This document shows, piece after piece, positions 49,379-54,703 of a DNA stretch of 64,000 bases; within the stretch, counting starts at the first letter, position 1; each line of letters starts with the position of its first letter. The DNA is taken from assembly GCA_022708105.1 (NCBI GenBank), contig JAKIZI010000001.1, positions 16,942-80,941 of the forward strand, written 5' to 3'. The notes beneath the pieces are model-generated. The model was not told where the DNA came from. It made no database searches and was given only the letters and a program-made list of their open reading frames with translations. This DNA comes from Bacteroidota bacterium. GTDB taxonomy: Bacteria > Bacteroidota > Bacteroidia > Bacteroidales > WCHB1-69. A program made the position numbers and the translations under genes.

Positions 49379-50608
49379 ATGCCTCTGCCCATTATTACGC
49401 TTCAAAACGGAATAAAATTGATTCATCAGGAGATCAATTCTCCGATTGCTCACTTCGGCATTTTGGTCAATGCCGGTACCCGCGATGAGACGGAAAATAA
49501 GATGGGATTAGCCCATTTTGTAGAACATACTATTTTTAAAGGAACTAAAAAACGAAAAGGATACCAAATCTTAAAACGACTCGAAAATGTCGGGGGGGAA
49601 CTCAATGCCTGCACTTCGAAAGAAGAAACTTACTTCCACGCCTCTTTCCTGTCGCAAGATTATCCCCGCGTCTTAGAACTATTGTCGGATATCTTTTTTA
49701 ATTCTACCTTCCCCGCGAAAGAACTCGAAAAGGAAAAAGATGTGATTCTCGAAGAAATTAACTACTACAAAGATACGCCCTCCGAATTTATTTTCGACGA
49801 ATTTGAAAGCGTCCTATTCTACAAGCATCCTTTAGCCATGAATATTCTCGGAACTAAAAAGTCGGTGAAAAATATAGGGCAAGCGGATATTTTCGATTTT
49901 ATAAAGAGGCAATATACGCCGGAACATATTGTGCTCTCATCCGTGGGACAAATCGACATACACCGGCTGCAAAAGCTTTGCGATCGCTATTTTGCGACAC
50001 ACGACTTTCATAGCGGAACGCGAGACCGACAGCCGTTCACCAAATACACCCCCCAAGCGGTTCGCAAACATAAATCAATTTCTCAATCGCATATTATGTT
50101 GGGCAATATCGCCTATTCGATACAGGACGACCGCAAAAATCCGTTTCTATTGCTCACCAATTTACTCGGCGGACAAGGAATGAGTACGCGGCTGAACATG
50201 GCTATTCGCGAAAAACGAGGATTGGCTTATTCCGTCGAAGCCAATTTCGTTCCGTTTTCGGATACCGGGCTCTTTAGCATCTATATCGGATGCGACCATG
50301 AGATGATTGATAAATGTATTGAATTGACATATAAAGAGTTGAATAATCTTGCAACCCAAAAGTTAGGGACTTTGCAACTTCATTATGCCAAAAAACAACT
50401 CATCGGACAAATGGCGATTTCGAGTGAATCAAAACTCAATGAAATGCTTACCAATGGACGTAGTGCGCTCTTTTTTGATGAAGCGGATACGTTAGAAGAG
50501 GCCATTCAAAAAGTCGAAATCATTACCGCAGAGGATATTTTGGTCGTAGCGAATGAGATTTTTCAACGCGAGCAATTCTCAACGCTCATCTATTCCGGTC
50601 GCCAATAA
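49379..50608 (+). CDS. M16-family (pitrilysin/insulinase-like) zinc peptidase
   Basis: Inverted zinc motif HFVEHTIFKG (HxxEH), a downstream Glu region, and two-domain size of about 410 aa. Confidence 0.8.
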   Translation: MPLPIITLQNGIKLIHQEINSPIAHFGILVNAGTRDETENKMGLAHFVEHTIFKGTKKRKGYQILKRLENVGGELNACTSKEETYFHASFLSQDYPRVLELLSDIFFNSTFPAKELEKEKDVILEEINYYKDTPSEFIFDEFESVLFYKHPLAMNILGTKKSVKNIGQADIFDFIKRQYTPEHIVLSSVGQIDIHRLQKLCDRYFATHDFHSGTRDRQPFTKYTPQAVRKHKSISQSHIMLGNIAYSIQDDRKNPFLLLTNLLGGQGMSTRLNMAIREKRGLAYSVEANFVPFSDTGLFSIYIGCDHEMIDKCIELTYKELNNLATQKLGTLQLHYAKKQLIGQMAISSESKLNEMLTNGRSALFFDEADTLEEAIQKVEIITAEDILVVANEIFQREQFSTLIYSGRQ

Positions 50609-51220
50609 ATAGGACTTCGACTCATTGCCTTTGTTACATAACAAGTCCAGTACCGACAACGCCGGTGTAAAGCCGAATTTTTCATCGAAGACCTGCCGAT
50701 AGGGAATGTCCGGCTTGAAAGGATAATCAGAGGTGCCGTACAACTTGGGATGAATCGTATAACGAGCATCTATTGAAGCCGTTTCATCATATTCCATAAA
50801 TTGCTCCGTATAGAAAATCTCCTTTTCTGTCCGTAACAATTTCAAAATCACCGCCAAAAGTTCCTGATTAAAATCCCATAAATATTTTATCTTTTTCTCG
50901 TAAAATGGCGCCAAAAAATCGCGGTAATAGATAAAAAACGGGCTATTATTGTATGCCGTCTCCATAGTACGCCAATGATGCCGCTGCCATTCGGTTTTGT
51001 AGTCGATTTCCACCTCTTTAATCATCATTTTCTGATACTTCTGCACCACAGGAATCGATAGCGATTGAGGTCCGTTCGCACTCAAAACAGTCATTCTATT
51101 GCGGTAAGACTGCTTTCTGTAATGCTCTTCGGCCTCCAGATAGATCGTTTCCGGACGCAGGAGCAACGCCATATACGCAATAGGCGGGAAGTAAGCGGAA
51201 GTCAAAAGAATTTTACTCAT
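50579..51220 (-). CDS. WbqC-family protein
   Basis: The N-terminus SAYFPPIAYMALL...EEHYRKQSYRNR is characteristic of WbqC-like proteins. Has a 30-nt convergent overlap with the M16 peptidase 3' end. Confidence 0.6.
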   Translation of the reverse strand: MSKILLTSAYFPPIAYMALLLRPETIYLEAEEHYRKQSYRNRMTVLSANGPQSLSIPVVQKYQKMMIKEVEIDYKTEWQRHHWRTMETAYNNSPFFIYYRDFLAPFYEKKIKYLWDFNQELLAVILKLLRTEKEIFYTEQFMEYDETASIDARYTIHPKLYGTSDYPFKPDIPYRQVFDEKFGFTPALSVLDLLCNKGNESKSYLLATGIDER

Positions 51221-51333
51221 AACCTGAGTTCGATTTATAAAATTCTGTATATCAATGAATTAAAGAGTTAAAATATTAAGTTAATTCAATGGGATTTATT
51301 ATCTTTATAACTGATAACCAACAAATTAAATAA

Positions 51334-51809
51334 AATCCCATAAATATAACCTGCGACAAAATTACGGAAATTTTCTATTTGGCAGATGATTTTTGCAAAG
51401 AATTTTATGCTGTTCTCGATAAGAATTCATTAGGAAAAAATCCAAAAAGAAAACCGATGATGTCTCACAGTAAAATTATAACGATTATGATTTTATTTCA
51501 CTATGGTTCTTTTCGTAATTTTAAGCACATTTACTCCTATTATGTTCCTTTTCATCTACGTTCATATTTTCCCAAAACAGTTTCTTACAATCGATTTGTT
51601 GAATTAATGGAAAAAGAAACATTAGCCTTGACAATAATGCTTCACATTTGTTGTTTAGGCCAAGATAACGGGATTGCTTTTGTAGATTCCACCCCAATAA
51701 GAGTGTGTAAAAATAAACGTATCGCAATAACGTATTTAAAGGTCTTGCTGCCATTGGCAAAAGCATCGTGGAATGGTTTCATGGATTCAAATTACATCTG
51801 ATTATTTAA
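51334..51809 (+). pseudogene. IS982-family transposase remnant (no ATG start, frameshifted, 3' half missing)
   Basis: KITEIFYLADDFCKEF...ITIMILFHYGSFRNFKHIYSYYV...FPKTVSYNRFVELMEK...IAFVDSTPIRVCKNKRI matches the IS982 transposase N-terminal half. Homology continues in the next reading frame (-1 relative to the first) from 51729 (NVFKGLAAIGKSIVEWFHGFKLHLII) and stops at 51807-51809. About 155 of roughly 290 codons are present. Confidence 0.65.
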
Positions 51810-51867
51810 TATCGAACTCCGATTGATACATAGAAAAGGATAACTTACTCTCAAATTATATTATTTT

Positions 51868-51999
51868 GTATTTTATAGAATACAATTTTTATATACTTTT
51901 GTATTTTAGAAAATACAAAAATTATATTATTTTGTATTATATAGAATACAATTTTTATATATCTTTGCATTTTATAAAATACATTTTATATCTTTGCAA
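51868..51999 (+). repeat. four 16-bp palindromes (GTATT-N6-AATAC) phased exactly 33 bp apart within a 66-bp tandem duplication
   Basis: gtattttatagaatac at 51868, gtattttagaaaatac at 51901, gtattatatagaatac at 51934, and gcattttataaaatac at 51967 (one arm mismatch). The 66-bp units 51853-51918 and 51919-51984 differ at a few positions. Confidence 0.85.
51989..51996 (+). promoter_or_regulatory. Bacteroidota -7 promoter box (TAnnTTTG), third of three tandem copies
   Basis: TATCTTTG lies 16 nt upstream of the ATG at 52013. Earlier copies are TACTTTTG at 51894-51901 and TATCTTTG at 51960-51967. Confidence 0.5.
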
Positions 52000-52012
52000 A
52001 AAAATAAAAACC

Positions 52013-53215
52013 ATGAAACAATTATTTTTAGCATTTTACCGCAAATTAGAAGAGACTGACATGCGTTTTGAACGATATTTAAAAAATCAAATCGACTGGA
52101 ACAATCGGCTAATTGCGATTACAGGGGCACGTGGAACAGGAAAAACCACCATGTTGTTGCAACACATCAAAGAACAATACGGCAATCATCCTGATCATGT
52201 ACTATTTGTGAGCTTAGATAACATTTATTTCAGCTCCCGAAATTTGTATTCATTGGCTGATGAATTTTATGCCTTCGGCGGAAAAGAATTATATTTGGAC
52301 GAAGTACATAAATATCCTACTTGGGCTCAAGAAATCAAAAATATATATGATGATTTTCCTAAAATAAAAATTATTTTTACAGGTTCATCCATGTTGCAAA
52401 TTTTGAAAGCAGATGCTGATTTAAGTCGTCGTATTCGGCATTTTCAATTATATGGTTTATCCTTTCGAGAATTTTTAATTTTCGAAGGACTTATTCAAAA
52501 GTCGCAAAGTCCATATTTACTTGAAGATATTCTTAAAAATCACTTGGCGATTGCTCAGAAATTTAATAAAGAATTTACCCCGTTACCGGCATTTCAGAAA
52601 TACCTTAAATTTGGATATTATCCTTATTATCAAGAAGATATTGCGGGTTATGGTGAACGTGTCTTGCAAACTTTCAATACCGTGATAGAGAGTGATCTGC
52701 CAAATGTTGAGCGTATTGATTTCTACTCAATCAACAGAATTAAAAAGCTGTTTTACATACTTTCGGAAATGGTTCCCTTTGCGCCAAATATTTCGCAATT
52801 GAGTCAAATGGTAGATGTAACCCGCACGAGTTTAATGAATTATCTTGGGCTTCTCGAAAAATCACATAGTATTTTATTACTTAAAAAGAAAGCGACGGGA
52901 ATAAGACAAATGGTTAAGCCGGAGAAGATTTACTTGCAAAACACCAACTATAATTATGCTCTTGCTCCGGAAAATCCACAAATCGGAAATGTACGGGAAA
53001 CTTTTTTCTTTAACCAACTACAACAAAATCACGATGTTAGCTTTACTGAAGAGACGGATTTTTGCATTGACGGAAAATACTATTTTGAGATAGGCGGCAA
53101 AAATAAAAGCAACATACAAGTAAGAAATTTAGAGTATGCATATTTGGCACTTGACGGTTTGACGATTGGTTTTCAGAACGAAATTCCTCTATGGTTATTT
53201 GGTTTTTTATATTAA
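52013..53215 (+). CDS. AAA-family ATPase (AAA_14 plus DUF4143-type architecture)
   Basis: Walker A ITGARGTGKTT and Walker B LYLDEVH, about 400 aa, typical of Bacteroidota 'ATP-binding protein' genes. The track start at 51866 translates the AT-rich repeat array, so the ATG at 52013 (MKQLFLAFYRKLEE) is preferred. Confidence 0.7.
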   Translation: MKQLFLAFYRKLEETDMRFERYLKNQIDWNNRLIAITGARGTGKTTMLLQHIKEQYGNHPDHVLFVSLDNIYFSSRNLYSLADEFYAFGGKELYLDEVHKYPTWAQEIKNIYDDFPKIKIIFTGSSMLQILKADADLSRRIRHFQLYGLSFREFLIFEGLIQKSQSPYLLEDILKNHLAIAQKFNKEFTPLPAFQKYLKFGYYPYYQEDIAGYGERVLQTFNTVIESDLPNVERIDFYSINRIKKLFYILSEMVPFAPNISQLSQMVDVTRTSLMNYLGLLEKSHSILLLKKKATGIRQMVKPEKIYLQNTNYNYALAPENPQIGNVRETFFFNQLQQNHDVSFTEETDFCIDGKYYFEIGGKNKSNIQVRNLEYAYLALDGLTIGFQNEIPLWLFGFLY

Positions 53216-53217
53216 CA

Positions 53218-53234
53218 TTTGAGATATTCTCAAA
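53218..53234 (+). terminator. weak hairpin after the ATPase gene
   Basis: tttgaga-tat-tctcaaa starts 3 nt after the stop. No clear T-run follows. Confidence 0.3.
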
Positions 53235-53285
53235 ATTCGGTTCAAACTACAATTAATGTATTGGTTTATTTAATGTGAAAAAAGA

Positions 53286-53293
53286 TTACATTT
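53286..53293 (+). promoter_or_regulatory. Bacteroidota -7 promoter box (TAnnTTTG) for radA
   Basis: TACATTTG lies 21 nt upstream of the ATG at 53315. Confidence 0.5.
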
Positions 53294-53314
53294 GCATCTT
53301 AAAACAGAATTTGT

Positions 53315-54703
53315 ATGGCGAAATTAAAATCTTCATTTTTTTGCAAAAATTGTGGTGCACAATCGGCTAAATGGATGGGACGTTGTCCCTCATGTGGCGA
53401 ATGGAATACGTTTGAGGAGGAGATTTTAGTCCGTGCAGACCCACCCAAAGGAAAATCTTCCGGAATGGGTATTCCTTCCTCTCCAAAGTTAATTGAGGAT
53501 ATTTCGCTTACGGAATTGCCCCGACTTAAATCAGGATTTCGAGAACTGGATGGGGTGCTGGGCGGCGGTATTGTGCGTGGCTCCATCATTCTGCTTGGAG
53601 GTGAACCCGGTATCGGAAAATCTACCTTATTGCTGCAAATGGCTATGGCCCTATCTGATACAAAGGTACTTTATGTTTCGGGTGAGGAGAGTGAAAGTCA
53701 GTTGAAAATGCGGGCAGAACGATTAGAAATCAATACCAACACAGAACATTGTTATATCCTTACGGAAACCAATACGCAAGAGATTTTTCAACATATCGAC
53801 CAACTTCGGCCGGATGTAATTATCATTGATTCCATACAAACGTTACAGAGCAACTTATTGGATTCTGCTTCTGGTTCAATTTCACAAATCAAGGAGTGTG
53901 CAGCGGAATTTCAGCACTTGGCAAAGACAACGGCCATCCCCGTCTTCTTAATTGGTCATATTACCAAAGATGGCACATTGGCCGGTCCGAAGATTTTGGA
54001 ACATATTGTGGATACGGTGTTGCAATTTGAAGGCGATCAACATTACGGATACAGGATTGTGCGTTGCACCAAGAACCGGTTCGGCTCTACTTCAGAGTTG
54101 GGTATTTTTGAGATGACCGGGAACGGTTTGCGCGAGGTTCTCAACTCTTCGGAAATATTGTTGTCTCAGCGGGACGAGGATTTTAGCGGAAATGCTATTG
54201 CGGCGATTCTTGAAGGAAATCGACCTTTGATGATTGAGACACAAGCACTGGTCAGCTCGGCAGTTTATGGCATGCCGCAGCGCTCCGCCACCGGATATGA
54301 TATTCGACGCATGAACATGTTGCTGGCAGTATTAGAAAAACGCTGTCGTTTCAAATTAGGAGCTAAAGATGTATTTATCAATATTGCCGGTGGTATTCAT
54401 GTGGAAGATCCGGCCATTAATCTCTCTATTGTAGCCGCTATTCTTTCTTCGGTCACCGACATTCCGATAGATGCCAAAACCTGCTTTGCGGGTGAAATGG
54501 GATTAAACGGAGAAATTCGTGCGGTAACTCGCATCGAACAGCGAATTACCGAAGCCGATAAATTGGGCTTTACCCGAATATTCCTTTCCAAATATAATAT
54601 GAAAGGACTGAAACAGAATCAATTTGGGATAGAACTCATTCCTATTGGGAAAATCGATGAAATCTTTGCGTTGCTTTTCGAACCCAGGGAAAGCAAATCC
54701 TGA
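53315..54703 (+). CDS. radA: DNA repair protein RadA/Sms
   Basis: Zinc finger CKNCGAQSAKWMGRCPSCGEWNT, Walker A GGEPGIGKSTL, the KNRFG motif, and a Lon-protease-like C-terminal domain. Confidence 0.92.
   Translation: MAKLKSSFFCKNCGAQSAKWMGRCPSCGEWNTFEEEILVRADPPKGKSSGMGIPSSPKLIEDISLTELPRLKSGFRELDGVLGGGIVRGSIILLGGEPGIGKSTLLLQMAMALSDTKVLYVSGEESESQLKMRAERLEINTNTEHCYILTETNTQEIFQHIDQLRPDVIIIDSIQTLQSNLLDSASGSISQIKECAAEFQHLAKTTAIPVFLIGHITKDGTLAGPKILEHIVDTVLQFEGDQHYGYRIVRCTKNRFGSTSELGIFEMTGNGLREVLNSSEILLSQRDEDFSGNAIAAILEGNRPLMIETQALVSSAVYGMPQRSATGYDIRRMNMLLAVLEKRCRFKLGAKDVFINIAGGIHVEDPAINLSIVAAILSSVTDIPIDAKTCFAGEMGLNGEIRAVTRIEQRITEADKLGFTRIFLSKYNMKGLKQNQFGIELIPIGKIDEIFALLFEPRESKS

What the first reader, a model, noticed from the sequence alone, without database searches (positions are those of the whole stretch)
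51853..52012. Four 16-bp palindromes phased exactly 33 bp apart, interleaved with triplicated promoter boxes, upstream of an AAA/DUF4143 ATPase
The site GTATT-N6-AATAC occurs at 51868, 51901, 51934 and 51967. The last copy has one arm mismatch. The spacing is a constant 33 bp, about three helical turns, so all four sites face the same side of the helix. The array derives from a 66-bp tandem duplication (51853-51918 and 51919-51984) plus a partial third copy. It also yields three TAnnTTTG -7 boxes, at 51894, 51960 and 51989. Two palindromes start on the terminal G of a -7 box, so a bound dimer would occlude the promoter.

This looks like a cooperative operator array or an iteron-like set, next to an Orc/Cdc6-related ATPase and an IS relic. 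No annotated regulator lies adjacent, so autoregulation by the ATPase's C-terminal domain, or a relic plasmid/element origin, are the inferences to test.
Basis: partly seen in the sequence, partly recalled or inferred. Interest (0 to 1): 0.55.

Follow-up and report, generated by a model that had tools for sequence, protein, structure and literature searches.

The report
Phased self-operators of ATPase-nuclease gene
Four evenly spaced palindromes in front of a solitary ATPase-nuclease gene are most likely the sites where that protein binds its own promoter. The same 33-bp-spaced design, with site and protein changing together, recurs in front of its relatives from Bacteroidota to archaea.

Summary
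GTATT-N6-AATAC occurs at 51868, 51901 and 51934, with a one-mismatch copy at 51967, all exactly 33 bp apart; 0.11 exact matches are expected in 64 kb. The 66-bp duplication is also real, but it is not the source of the phasing. 39 of 44 orthologous loci carry a dyad pair exactly 33 bp apart, mostly near -80 and -47 from the ATG. Relatives at 24-50% identity carry different palindromes at the same 32-33 bp spacing, including Haloferax.

The promoter-proximal dyad fills the spacer between the Bacteroidota -33 (TTTG) and -7 (TAnnTTTG) elements. The gene (52013-53215) belongs to AAA_14/DUF4143, PADLOC candidate PDC-S01. A confident AlphaFold model shows an AAA+ domain, a central winged helix and a C-terminal nuclease-like domain. 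Its best structural matches are Orc1/Cdc6 bound to origin DNA. The putative recognition helix changes together with the half-site.

The conserved unit is array plus promoter plus ORF, with no conserved neighbour. The best reading is autogenous operators bound cooperatively by the gene's own product. Nothing supports a replication origin. Orphan arrays and arrays 3' of the gene in some relatives remain unexplained. No description of this design was found in the searchable literature.

The parts
51864..51887 (.). Dyad 1, the most distal (core GTATT-N6-AATAC at 51868-51883)
   Evidence: Exact match. It aligns with dyad 2 of the 5-dyad array in L043.
51897..51920 (.). Dyad 2 (core 51901-51916), the best palindrome: TTTTGTATTTT-AG-AAAATACAAAA
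   Evidence: I23: 11-nt arms, 100% complementary.
51930..51953 (.). Dyad 3 (core 51934-51949). It corresponds to the conserved distal dyad of orthologues, about -80 from the ATG.
51963..51986 (.). Dyad 4 (core GCATT-N6-AATAC at 51967-51982), promoter-proximal. It corresponds to the conserved dyad about -47 from the ATG and fills the -33/-7 spacer.
51853..51984 (+). 66-bp tandem duplication (51853-51918 and 51919-51984) that raised the array from 2 to 4 dyads
   Evidence: TRF period 66, 2.0 copies, 92%. Orthologues mostly have 2 dyads. L043 has one more 33-bp unit.
51964..51996 (+). Probable working promoter: -33 TTTG (51964-51967), 21-nt spacer, -7 TATCTTTG (51989-51996). The inferred transcription start is near 52001.
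   Evidence: It is the only TTTG-N21-TAnnTTTG in the window. The -7 box is conserved in orthologues. The consensus and the -12..-5 register come from PMC6847099. The start site is inferred.
51894..51901 (+). Upstream -7-like box TACTTTTG, made by the duplication; probably weak or inactive
   Evidence: Sequence. It lies 25 nt from the preceding TTTG. It is not conserved in 2-dyad orthologues.
51960..51967 (+). Upstream -7-like box TATCTTTG; its G begins dyad 4
   Evidence: Sequence. The same fusion of a -7 box to a dyad arm is the native arrangement in the L052 clade.
52013..53215 (+). Gene for a 400-aa AAA+ / winged-helix / PD-(D/E)XK-like protein (AAA_14 plus DUF4143; PADLOC PDC-S01)
   Evidence: Pfam, PADLOC, AF2 model with pLDDT 92, invariant residues.
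52721..52936 (+). Coding region of the predicted winged-helix domain (residues 237-308). The putative recognition helix is residues 271-283, nt 52823-52861.
   Evidence: Secondary structure H237-253, H260-267, H271-283, E287-290, E305-308. Homologue P0263 passes Pfam HTH_24 at the aligned residues. The helix varies with the half-site.
51379..51801 (+). IS982-family transposase relic. It is not part of the module, but it marks the synteny break at the left edge of the array.
   Evidence: NCBIfam NF033520, 5e-18, truncated. Homology to L043 starts at 51853.

Best explanation
The four dyads are an expanded set of autogenous operators for the gene at 52013-53215.

Its product has an AAA+ ATPase domain, a central winged helix and a C-terminal PD-(D/E)XK-type nuclease domain. 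It most likely binds each 16-24 bp palindrome as a dimer through the winged helix.

Dimers on neighbouring dyads, 33 bp apart (three turns of 11 bp), are probably held together through the ATPase domains, so binding would be cooperative. The promoter-proximal dyad (51963-51986) covers the -33 element and the whole spacer up to the -7 box. Occupancy would therefore exclude RNA polymerase and keep a potentially harmful nuclease at a low, self-limited level.

The ancestral design is two dyads. In this lineage, 33/66-bp tandem duplications produced four here and five in the closest relative.

Shown by computation: the sites, their phasing, their conservation, their position relative to promoter elements, the change of half-site with protein clade, the single-gene module, and the predicted winged helix.

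Inferred: that the gene's own product binds the sites, that binding is cooperative, that the outcome is repression, and where transcription starts.
For: 1. Enrichment and phasing in the window.

2. Conservation in orthologues. 39 of 44 loci at 61-94% protein identity have a dyad pair exactly 33 bp apart, in most of them near -80 and -47 from the ATG. Both dyads and the -7 box are conserved, while the 7-10 nt between the dyads are not, giving a footprint-like profile.

3. Generality with changed specificity. Homologues at 39-50% identity carry other palindromes at 32-33 bp spacing: TGTTTA..TAAACA, TGTTGA..TCAACA, TGCTAT..ATAGCA, TTACTT..AAGTAA and TGCACA..TGTGCA. 46 of 78 upstream regions have phased repeated palindromes. 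The controls give 2 of 1560 shuffles and 0 of 69 and 0 of 78 control regions. 84 of 109 adjacent spacings are 33 and 7 are 32.

4. Deep relatives. Haloferax (24% identity) has GTTGTA-N10-TACAAC sites at -116, -83 and -50. Methanosphaera has three repeats at a 32-bp period. Emticicia shows 33 and Methanomethylovorans 32.

5. Promoter overlap. TTTG-N21-TAnnTTTG lies at 51964-51996 with dyad 4 inside it (consensus from PMC6847099).

6. A DNA-binding domain in the product. The AF2 model (pLDDT 92, pTM 0.90) has a canonical winged helix. The top PDB matches are Orc1/Cdc6 bound to DNA. Homologue P0263 exceeds the Pfam HTH_24 threshold at the aligned helix.

7. The start of helix 3 differs between half-site classes: TR.S for GTATT, NRAT for GTTTA, DRQT for GTTGA, NRNR for GCTAT. 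The half-site class does not simply follow overall identity. Proteins 39-44% identical to the window protein share GTATT, while proteins 46-50% identical use GTTTA.

8. An autonomous module. Homology to other loci starts at the dyads and ends at the stop codon. No flanking protein family recurs in more than 3 loci.

9. One MAG holds paralogues with different dyads: L029 has GTATT and L055 has GTTTA.

10. In a metagenome scan for the double dyad, 39 hits sit at the 5' end of ATPase homologues of 22-100% identity.
Against: There is no binding, footprint or expression data. Site and protein are physically linked, so their joint divergence is partly phylogenetic inertia.

About 30 double dyads of the same extended type in metagenomes have no adjacent ATPase gene. 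10 of 70 loci tested (all of them orthologues) carry one or two dyads directly after the stop codon, as does L024. Simple autorepression does not need either feature.

Some distant members show no array: Thermococcus, Parabacteroides (33%), Runella rosea and Sulfuricurvum. Alphaproteobacterial members have 22-bp direct repeats instead of dyads.

The direction of control (repression or activation) is inferred from position only. The same GTATT-N6-AATAC pair also precedes unrelated Fic genes, so the motif is not unique to this protein family.
Confidence: 0.68

Rival explanations
1. The dyads are loading or anchoring sites, comparable to Orc1/Cdc6 origin recognition boxes. The AAA+ protein would assemble on them into a higher-order nucleoprotein complex as its main activity. 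Examples would be a poised defence sensor parked on self DNA, or a complex that loops 5' and 3' arrays. Promoter control would be secondary or absent.
For: The best structural matches are Orc1/Cdc6 on origin DNA. The rigid 32-33 bp phasing is kept across very different half-sites and across domains of life, which suggests oligomer geometry. Arrays of up to 5 dyads occur. There are orphan arrays and arrays after the stop codon.
Against: In nearly all loci one dyad overlaps the core promoter of the gene itself. Two dyads is the norm. Nothing indicates a further function. This reading is compatible with autoregulation rather than exclusive of it.
Confidence: 0.15
2. The dyad pairs are cis-acting recombination or homing sites of a mobile single-gene cassette moved by its own nuclease. 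Orphan pairs would be empty or excised sites.
For: 80-85% protein identity is shared across MAGs assigned to different classes of Bacteroidota, in unrelated contexts. Dyad pairs lie on both sides of the gene in L024, L035, L139, L145, L161 and L167. Orphan pairs have flanks resembling the left flank of a 5' array and the right flank of a 3' array. Some deletion derivatives retain the array plus the last codons of the gene (L107, L141, L155). In the window, synteny breaks at the array edge.
Against: Most loci have dyads only upstream (60 of 70). No matched filled/empty pair in otherwise identical flanks was found; L137 and L168 turned out to match L024's separate upstream orphan array and then end. 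No target-site duplications were seen. Homologous recombination between direct repeats, and ordinary gene decay, explain the orphans more simply. MAG binning errors could inflate the apparent taxonomic spread.
Confidence: 0.08
3. The dyads are bound by an unlinked host regulator, and the ATPase gene is just one member of its regulon.
For: The same GTATT-N6-AATAC pair occurs upstream of Fic genes and at orphan sites.
Against: The half-site differs between paralogues in one MAG and between clades, in step with the ATPase's own helix 3. The design persists from Bacteroidota to Haloferax. No conserved neighbouring regulator exists. There is no other exact site in the 64-kb window.
Confidence: 0.05
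4. The array is a relic plasmid or element replication origin with iterons. Alternatively it is a functionless tandem duplication whose palindromes matter only as hairpins.
For: The stretch is AT-rich and repetitive and lies next to an Orc/Cdc6-like gene and an IS relic. The window's cumulative GC skew has its minimum at about 51-52 kb. The RNA fold z-score is -6.0.
Against: DnaA boxes are at chance level and not clustered (23 found, 22.2 expected). The family is rare on plasmids (40 of 72,556) and phages (1 of 50,697) and occurs in several copies per genome. Sequence-specific conservation across 40+ loci excludes a neutral duplication. The dyads lie upstream of the -7 box, so they are not transcribed from the conserved promoter. 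Any palindrome gives a strong fold z-score.
Confidence: 0.03

Closest known systems
PADLOC candidate PDC-S01 (COG1373; Pfam AAA_14 + DUF4143), an ATPase fused to a PD-(D/E)XK domain
   Same: The window protein matches PDC-S01 models (6.8e-27) and AAA_14 (3.6e-30). It has the conserved acidic and lysine residues in the C-terminal domain. Like this locus, PDC-S01 is a single-gene system (PMC12988326).
   Different: The family is known only as an abundant, experimentally unvalidated defence candidate (PMC12988326, PMC13356809). No cis-element, winged helix or autoregulation was found described for it in the searchable literature.
Archaeal Orc1/Cdc6 initiators and their origin recognition boxes
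   Same: Both have an AAA+ domain followed by a winged helix. The top Foldseek hits are 2qby_A and 2v1u_A, both DNA-bound. Repeated dyad-containing sites lying next to the initiator's own gene are a feature recalled from my own knowledge.
   Different: This protein has an extra nuclease-like domain and gives no Pfam Cdc6 hit. The sites overlap the gene's own promoter at a fixed 33-bp spacing. There are many paralogues per genome. There is no evidence for an unwinding element, DnaA boxes or replication.
Controller (C) proteins of restriction-modification systems and their C-boxes (own knowledge)
   Same: Paired palindromic operators overlap the promoter and are bound cooperatively. This gives autogenous control that limits expression of a nuclease.
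   Different: A C protein is a separate small HTH protein. Here the DNA-binding domain is built into the ATPase-nuclease itself, and the operators are 33 bp apart rather than adjacent.
Winged-helix regulators of defence systems such as BrxR and CapW (own knowledge)
   Same: A wHTH protein binds inverted repeats upstream of a defence operon and represses it until triggered.
   Different: Those are dedicated regulators with WYL sensor domains encoded beside the system. Here no separate regulator exists.
Iteron plasmids with winged-helix Rep proteins such as pPS10 RepA (own knowledge)
   Same: In both, a winged-helix protein acts through a palindromic operator overlapping its own promoter. Phased repeats occur at multiples of 11 bp. 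Alphaproteobacterial relatives even show 22-bp direct repeats.
   Different: There is no replication context. The repeats here are dyads, not direct iterons. The setting is chromosomal and multi-copy.

Membership tests
PDC-S01 / COG1373 (AAA_14 + DUF4143) | N-terminal AAA_14 P-loop ATPase domain | tested here: met
   PF13173 at 3.6e-30, residues 30-155. The Walker A motif GxxGxGKT is invariant.
PDC-S01 / COG1373 (AAA_14 + DUF4143) | DUF4143 region following the ATPase | tested here: met
   The window protein is weak against PF13635 (4.3e-4, below the cutoff). Many orthologues carry a precomputed PF13635 hit. PADLOC PDC-S01 models match residues 22-351 at 6.8e-27.
PDC-S01 / COG1373 (AAA_14 + DUF4143) | Anti-phage activity | not testable with these tools
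PD-(D/E)XK nuclease superfamily | Alpha-beta-beta-beta-alpha-beta core with conserved acidic residues and lysine | tested here: inconclusive
   E329, D349, E359 and K365 are invariant. The predicted elements are H324-336, E350-352, E356-361, E376-380, E390-392 and H393-398. DUF4143 is listed as PD-(D/E)XK in PMC3424549. The whole-model fold search was dominated by the AAA+ part, so the domain was not matched on its own.
Orc1/Cdc6 initiators | AAA+ module followed by a winged-helix DNA-binding domain | tested here: met
   AF2 model. Foldseek top hits are 2qby_A (5.6e-8) and 2v1u_A (1.6e-7) over about 380 columns, but TM is only about 0.32.
Orc1/Cdc6 initiators | Sequence membership and origin function (adjacent unwinding element, replication) | tested here: not met
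   No Cdc6/ORC Pfam family appears among the hits. There is no DnaA-box cluster and only a weak skew signal. There are several paralogues per genome. Replication activity itself is not testable here.
Iteron-type plasmid origin | Tandem direct repeats bound by a Rep protein, in a plasmid or element context | tested here: not met
   The repeats are dyads. The neighbours are housekeeping genes. The family is present in only 40 of 72,556 plasmid records.
Autogenous operator (self-repressed gene) | Sites overlap the core promoter of the gene | tested here: met
   Dyad 4 lies within TTTG-N21-TAnnTTTG at 51964-51996. The same position is conserved in orthologues.
Autogenous operator (self-repressed gene) | The product has a sequence-specific DNA-binding domain whose specificity tracks the site | tested here: met
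   A winged helix is predicted with confidence. HTH_24 is above threshold in homologue P0263. The helix-3 / half-site table supports tracking. This is correlation, not proof.
Autogenous operator (self-repressed gene) | The product binds the sites and lowers transcription | not testable with these tools
   This needs EMSA or footprinting and reporter assays.

The most novel reading that the evidence does not exclude
The 33-bp-phased dyad arrays may be more than operators. They could be the defining cis partner of a very large family of Orc1/Cdc6-like ATPase-nucleases (PDC-S01/COG1373), shared by bacteria and archaea.

On this reading the protein polymerises on its own array in an 11-bp register. 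The array-protein pair would then act as a self-contained unit: either a poised sensor released on infection, or a mobile or addictive cassette whose arrays serve as recombination or homing sites.

This would account for arrays 3' of the gene, dispersed orphan arrays, and near-identical cassettes in distant Bacteroidota.
Probability: 0.15. Interest if true: 0.85.

Novelty: new variant of a known kind. Interest (0 to 1): 0.62.

Why it matters
PDC-S01 is reported as the fourth most common defence system detected across prokaryotes, but it is an unvalidated candidate (PMC12988326). It is also the most frequent individual defence locus in rumen genomes (PMC13356809). Nothing is known about how it works.

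If each gene carries its own co-diverging, rigidly phased operator array, several things follow:

- The central domain is a sequence-specific winged helix.
- The protein probably works as an oligomer with a fixed 33-bp (3 x 11) footprint.
- Expression of the nuclease is self-limited, which bears on toxicity and activation.
- Paralogues in one genome are insulated by different half-sites.

The half-site / helix-3 table gives a natural set of specificity variants for testing a recognition code. The arrays are also a simple genomic marker for the family. The orphan and 3' arrays raise the question of whether the family is really a defence system or a selfish cassette.

Tried and rejected
- The sigma-70 promoter/terminator scan is irrelevant for Bacteroidota promoters and gave nothing useful.
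- PDB sequence searches with the protein and with a profile found only P-loop similarity.
- The first AlphaFold run, with a shallow alignment, left residues 228-325 below pLDDT 50, and its fold search gave only generic AAA+ hits. I replaced it with a 114-sequence alignment.
- RNA folding of the array gives z = -6.0. Any palindrome array does this, and the dyads lie upstream of the conserved -7 box, so I did not use it.
- The replication-origin idea fails. DnaA boxes are at chance level. The GC-skew minimum at about 52 kb is shallow and dominated by gene-level effects at 58-62 kb.
- 'Empty site' evidence for mobility did not hold. L137 and L168 looked like gene-less versions of L024, but they align to L024's separate upstream orphan array and then the contigs end.
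- A search for gene remnants next to orphan arrays found C-terminal codons in only 3 of 44.
- A search for a conserved partner or regulator gene in the flanks found none.
- Literature searches for DUF4143, COG1373, PDC-S01, AAA_14/PF13173 and the guilt-by-embedding preprint found no description of these arrays.
- The viral contig hit for the double dyad (L080) belongs to an unrelated small ORF.
Full report
**1. What is in the window**

The stretch 51853-52012 was read directly. The dyads are:

- GTATTTTATAGAATAC at 51868
- GTATTTTAGAAAATAC at 51901
- GTATTATATAGAATAC at 51934
- GCATTTTATAAAATAC at 51967, with one arm mismatch

The start-to-start spacing is 33, 33, 33. The three exact matches are the only ones in 64 kb, against 0.11 expected; none of 100 dinucleotide shuffles reaches three. 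With one mismatch allowed there are 9 against 3.66.

Tandem Repeats Finder reports period 33 (4.2 copies) and period 66 (2.0 copies, 92% matches, 51853-51983). The best is TTTTGTATTTT-AG-AAAATACAAAA at 51897-51920.

The three TAnnTTTG boxes are at the stated positions, and two of them end on the G that begins a dyad. Two small corrections apply. The ATG is at 52013. The partial third repeat is offset by 29 nt, not 33.

**2. The gene and its surroundings**

The ORF at 52013-53215 encodes 400 aa with an AAA_14 domain (3.6e-30) and a weak DUF4143 match. It matches the PADLOC candidate family PDC-S01 (6.8e-27).

The neighbours are ordinary chromosomal genes. They include an M16 peptidase, WbqC, radA, kdsB, a deoxynucleoside kinase and an OPT transporter. 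An IS982-family transposase relic lies at 51379-51801.

The nearest relative in the genome collection is L043, an uncultured Lentimicrobiaceae MAG with 94% protein identity. It is syntenic from 51853 rightwards at 91% nucleotide identity. Its left neighbour is a different gene. L043 has five dyads, and the window's four align with its dyads 2-5.

**3. The phasing predates the local duplication**

I fetched 79 loci encoding relatives and read their upstream regions. In 39 of the 44 loci with 61-94% identity, a pair of GTATT-N6-AATAC-like dyads lies exactly 33 bp apart. In most of them the pair sits near -80 and -47 from the ATG.

Four of the other five loci keep a recognisable but degenerate distal dyad. 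In L010 the 5' region has been replaced.

I anchored the regions on the proximal dyad and computed column conservation. Both dyads and the following TAtcTTTG box are highly conserved, while 7-10 nt between the dyads carry no information. That profile looks like a footprint.

In the orthologue clade, arrays have 2 dyads in 32 loci, 3 in 3, 4 in 3 and 5 in 2. The window is therefore an expanded version of a two-dyad ancestor. The 66-bp duplication explains the copy number, not the 33-bp spacing.

**4. The design is family-wide and the site changes with the protein**

Relatives at 39-50% identity have different palindromes in the same place and at the same spacing:

- TGTTTA-N6-TAAACA (Pedobacter and others)
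- TGTTGA-N6-TCAACA (rumen Prevotellaceae)
- TGCTAT-N5-ATAGCA (Saprospiraceae)
- TTACTT-N4-AAGTAA, TGCACA-N6-TGTGCA and TTGCTG-N8-CAGCAA
- TTGTC-N10-GACAA (a Treponema MAG)

A de novo test looked for an exact 6-nt-arm palindrome with a second copy 31-34 bp away. It is positive in 46 of 78 upstream regions. The controls give 2 of 1560 shuffles, 0 of 69 regions 1.2 kb upstream and 0 of 78 coding regions. Of 109 adjacent-site spacings, 84 are 33 and 7 are 32, and most of the rest are about 66.

More distant members found on plasmid records show the same thing:

- Haloferax larsenii (24% identity) has GTTGTA-N10-TACAAC sites at -116, -83 and -50 and a weaker one at -149. The last site abuts a TATA-like TTATAC.
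- Emticicia shows 33 bp and Methanomethylovorans 32 bp.
- Methanosphaera has three repeats at a 32-bp period.

Two alphaproteobacterial members (21% identity) instead have direct repeats ACTTTnAAnTGGTCG exactly 22 bp apart. Both 22 and 33 are multiples of 11.

No array was evident for Thermococcus, a 33% Parabacteroides paralogue or Runella rosea, and Sulfuricurvum showed no clear repeated array. The feature is therefore common but not universal.

**5. Position relative to the promoter**

Bacteroidota promoters use -33 TTTG and -7 TAnnTTTG, the latter spanning -12 to -5 (PMC6847099). In the window, TTTG-N21-TAnnTTTG occurs exactly once, at 51964-51996. Dyad 4 (51967-51982) lies inside it, and its left arm supplies the -33 TTTG.

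This predicts a start near 52001 and a 12-nt leader. The arrangement is conserved in the orthologues.

The two upstream boxes lie 25 nt from the preceding TTTG and are absent from two-dyad orthologues. I therefore regard them as by-products of the duplication. In the L052 clade, however, a -7 box fused to a dyad arm is the native arrangement, so some activity cannot be excluded.

**6. The protein has a plausible reader for these sites**

A first AlphaFold run with a shallow alignment left the middle of the protein unresolved. With 114 sequences spanning 42-94% identity, the model reaches pLDDT 92 and pTM 0.90.

It shows an AAA+ module (1-232). A canonical winged helix follows: H237-253, H260-267, H271-283, and strands 287-290 and 305-308 around a less confident wing. 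A C-terminal alpha/beta domain completes the protein.

In the C-terminal domain, E329, D349, E359 and K365 are invariant. This agrees with the classification of DUF4143 as PD-(D/E)XK (PMC3424549).

The best PDB matches are archaeal Orc1/Cdc6 proteins bound to origin DNA: 2qby_A at 5.6e-8 and 2v1u_A at 1.6e-7. A homologue, P0263, exceeds Pfam's threshold for HTH_24 at the residues that align with helices 2-3.

The wH segment is the most variable part of an otherwise well-conserved protein. The start of helix 3 sorts with the half-site: (V/T)TR.S with GTATT, INRAT with GTTTA, CDRQT with GTTGA, LNRNR with GCTAT, and so on.

The half-site class is not a simple function of overall similarity. Proteins 39-44% identical to the window protein use GTATT, whereas proteins 46-50% identical use GTTTA. 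This is correlation between linked sequences, not proof of contact.

**7. The unit is autonomous**

Nucleotide homology between the window and all non-syntenic orthologues begins at the dyads (about 51897-51933) and ends at the stop codon (53213-53221). Among the flanks of orthologue loci, no protein family recurs in more than three loci. There is therefore no partner regulator.

One MAG (JAISHW01) carries two paralogues with different dyads: L029 with GTATT and L055 with GTTTA. This fits insulated protein-operator pairs and argues against a shared host regulator.

The protein is 80-85% identical in MAGs assigned to several classes of Bacteroidota. That points to horizontal spread, although binning errors cannot be excluded. 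The family is rare on plasmids (40 of 72,556 records) and in phages (1 of 50,697).

**8. Test of exclusivity**

I scanned metagenome contigs for two exact GTATT-N6-AATAC sites 33 bp apart. They sort as follows:

| Class | Loci |
|---|---|
| At the 5' end of an ATPase homologue (22-100% identity), including a 435-aa canonical AAA_14+DUF4143 gene | 39 |
| Directly 3' of such a gene | 5 |
| Too close to a contig end to judge | 23 |
| Internal, with no adjacent ATPase gene | 53 |

In a sixth locus (L145), dyad pairs flank the gene on both sides. One search scored it in the internal class.

Among the 53, I judged about 25 by eye to be unrelated tandem or coding repeats, and 5 belong to Fic genes. 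By the extended TGTATT/AATACA test, about 30 of the 53 are orphan pairs of the same type as the window's dyads.

Some orphans are deletion derivatives that retain the last codons of the gene. Others have conserved flanks and occur several times in one genome, one of them right after the ATPase stop codon (L024).

In the locus set, 10 of 70 testable loci, all orthologues, have one or two dyads immediately after the stop codon. The window does not. The association with the gene is thus very strong but not exclusive, and the orphan and 3' arrays are not explained by simple autoregulation.

**9. Interpretation**

The most economical reading is an autogenous operator array. The gene's own product would bind the dyads through its winged helix. 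Neighbouring dimers would be coupled at a fixed three-turn distance through the ATPase part. The proximal site would occlude the promoter, holding a nuclease-bearing protein at a low level.

I put this at about 0.68. The rivals are:

- Recombination or homing sites of a mobile cassette: 0.08.
- An unlinked regulator: 0.05.
- A relic origin or a neutral duplication: 0.03.

The origin idea was tested and finds no support. DnaA boxes are at chance level (23 against 22.2 expected) and not clustered. The GC-skew minimum near 52 kb is shallow.

**10. Comparison with what is known**

By domain content the protein is a member of PDC-S01/COG1373. Recent surveys rank that family among the most abundant defence candidates, still unvalidated, and describe it only as an ATPase fused to a PD-(D/E)XK domain (PMC12988326, PMC13356809).

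Functionally the arrangement works like C-protein/C-box control of restriction enzymes, or like BrxR/CapW control of defence operons. The difference is that the DNA-binding domain is part of the effector itself.

Structurally it resembles Orc1/Cdc6 with its recognition boxes, but it fails the membership test for an initiator. I found no description of these arrays in the searchable literature. That library is incomplete.

I rate the finding as a new variant of a known kind, with interest 0.62.

Noticed in passing
L024 3398-3450 and 5214-5262; L113 9637-9685; L163 3590-3638; L132 7846-7894: Orphan GTATT dyad pairs occur without an ATPase gene. They have conserved flanks (..tccga.c...tt [pair] aatac.aatttttctgatttgg..) and occur several times in one genome. 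In L024 one sits directly after the ATPase stop codon and another about 500 bp upstream of the gene's own array.
   Followed up: partly
L035, L139, L145, L161, L167 (pairs); L003, L005, L023, L028, L193 (single): Dyads of the locus's own type start 0-5 nt after the ATPase stop codon in 10 of 70 loci tested (all orthologues). The window has none at 53216-53315.
   Followed up: partly
L212 (Bacteroides finegoldii record NZ_OY725921.1), about 55-88 nt upstream of the gene: Hybrid dyads TTGTATT-N6-TAAACAA and TTGTTTA-N6-AATACAA lie 33 bp apart. They combine the half-sites of two clades into one larger palindrome. They sit in front of a 55%-identical gene that is annotated as two fragments.
   Followed up: no
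L210 -89/-67/-45/-23 and L205 -28/-6 relative to the ATG: Alphaproteobacterial distant homologues (21% identity) carry direct repeats ACTTTnAAnTGGTCG exactly 22 bp apart instead of dyads. This is iteron-like and again a multiple of 11 bp.
   Followed up: partly
L125 639-687, L153 3516-3564, L184 7046-7094, L190, L199: Fic genes (DUF4172 + Fic + C-terminal HTH) in GC-rich contigs have two GTATT-N6-AATAC dyads 33 bp apart, ending 5 nt before their ATG. This is a second, unrelated family with the same site design.
   Followed up: partly
L083, L098, L103, L104, L120, L148, L149, L165, L181, L198, L200; compare L109: Mostly human-gut metagenome contigs share an orphan dyad pair about 13 nt past the 3' end of a Fic gene. 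In L109 the same pair lies 180 nt upstream of a 435-aa AAA_14+DUF4143 gene, so the ATPase is variably present at this site.
   Followed up: partly
L080 1826-1874 (IMG/VR contig IMGVR_UViG_3300046507_000657): Two TGTATTGCAAACAATACA dyads lie 33 bp apart upstream of a small ORF starting near 1910 on a viral contig. No ATPase is nearby.
   Followed up: no
window 51379-51801 and 51802-51852: An IS982-family transposase relic (truncated, 140-aa ORF) ends about 50 bp before the array. Synteny with the closest relative, L043, breaks exactly at 51853, the left edge of the array.
   Followed up: partly
window 50000-54000: The cumulative GC skew of the window has its minimum at about 51-52 kb. DnaA boxes are at chance level and unclustered, so I do not read this as an origin.
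   Followed up: yes
L030 1500-2693 and 2786-3988; L015, L023, L039 flanks: Paralogous COG1373-type ATPase genes sometimes lie in tandem or next to the orthologue. They are the only recurrent neighbour, seen in 3 loci.
   Followed up: no
L110, L115, L154, L169, L195: Unrelated 33-bp tandem repeats contain GTATTGGGATCAATAC in long arrays, in metagenome contigs of unknown nature. They were picked up only because of the search pattern.
   Followed up: no
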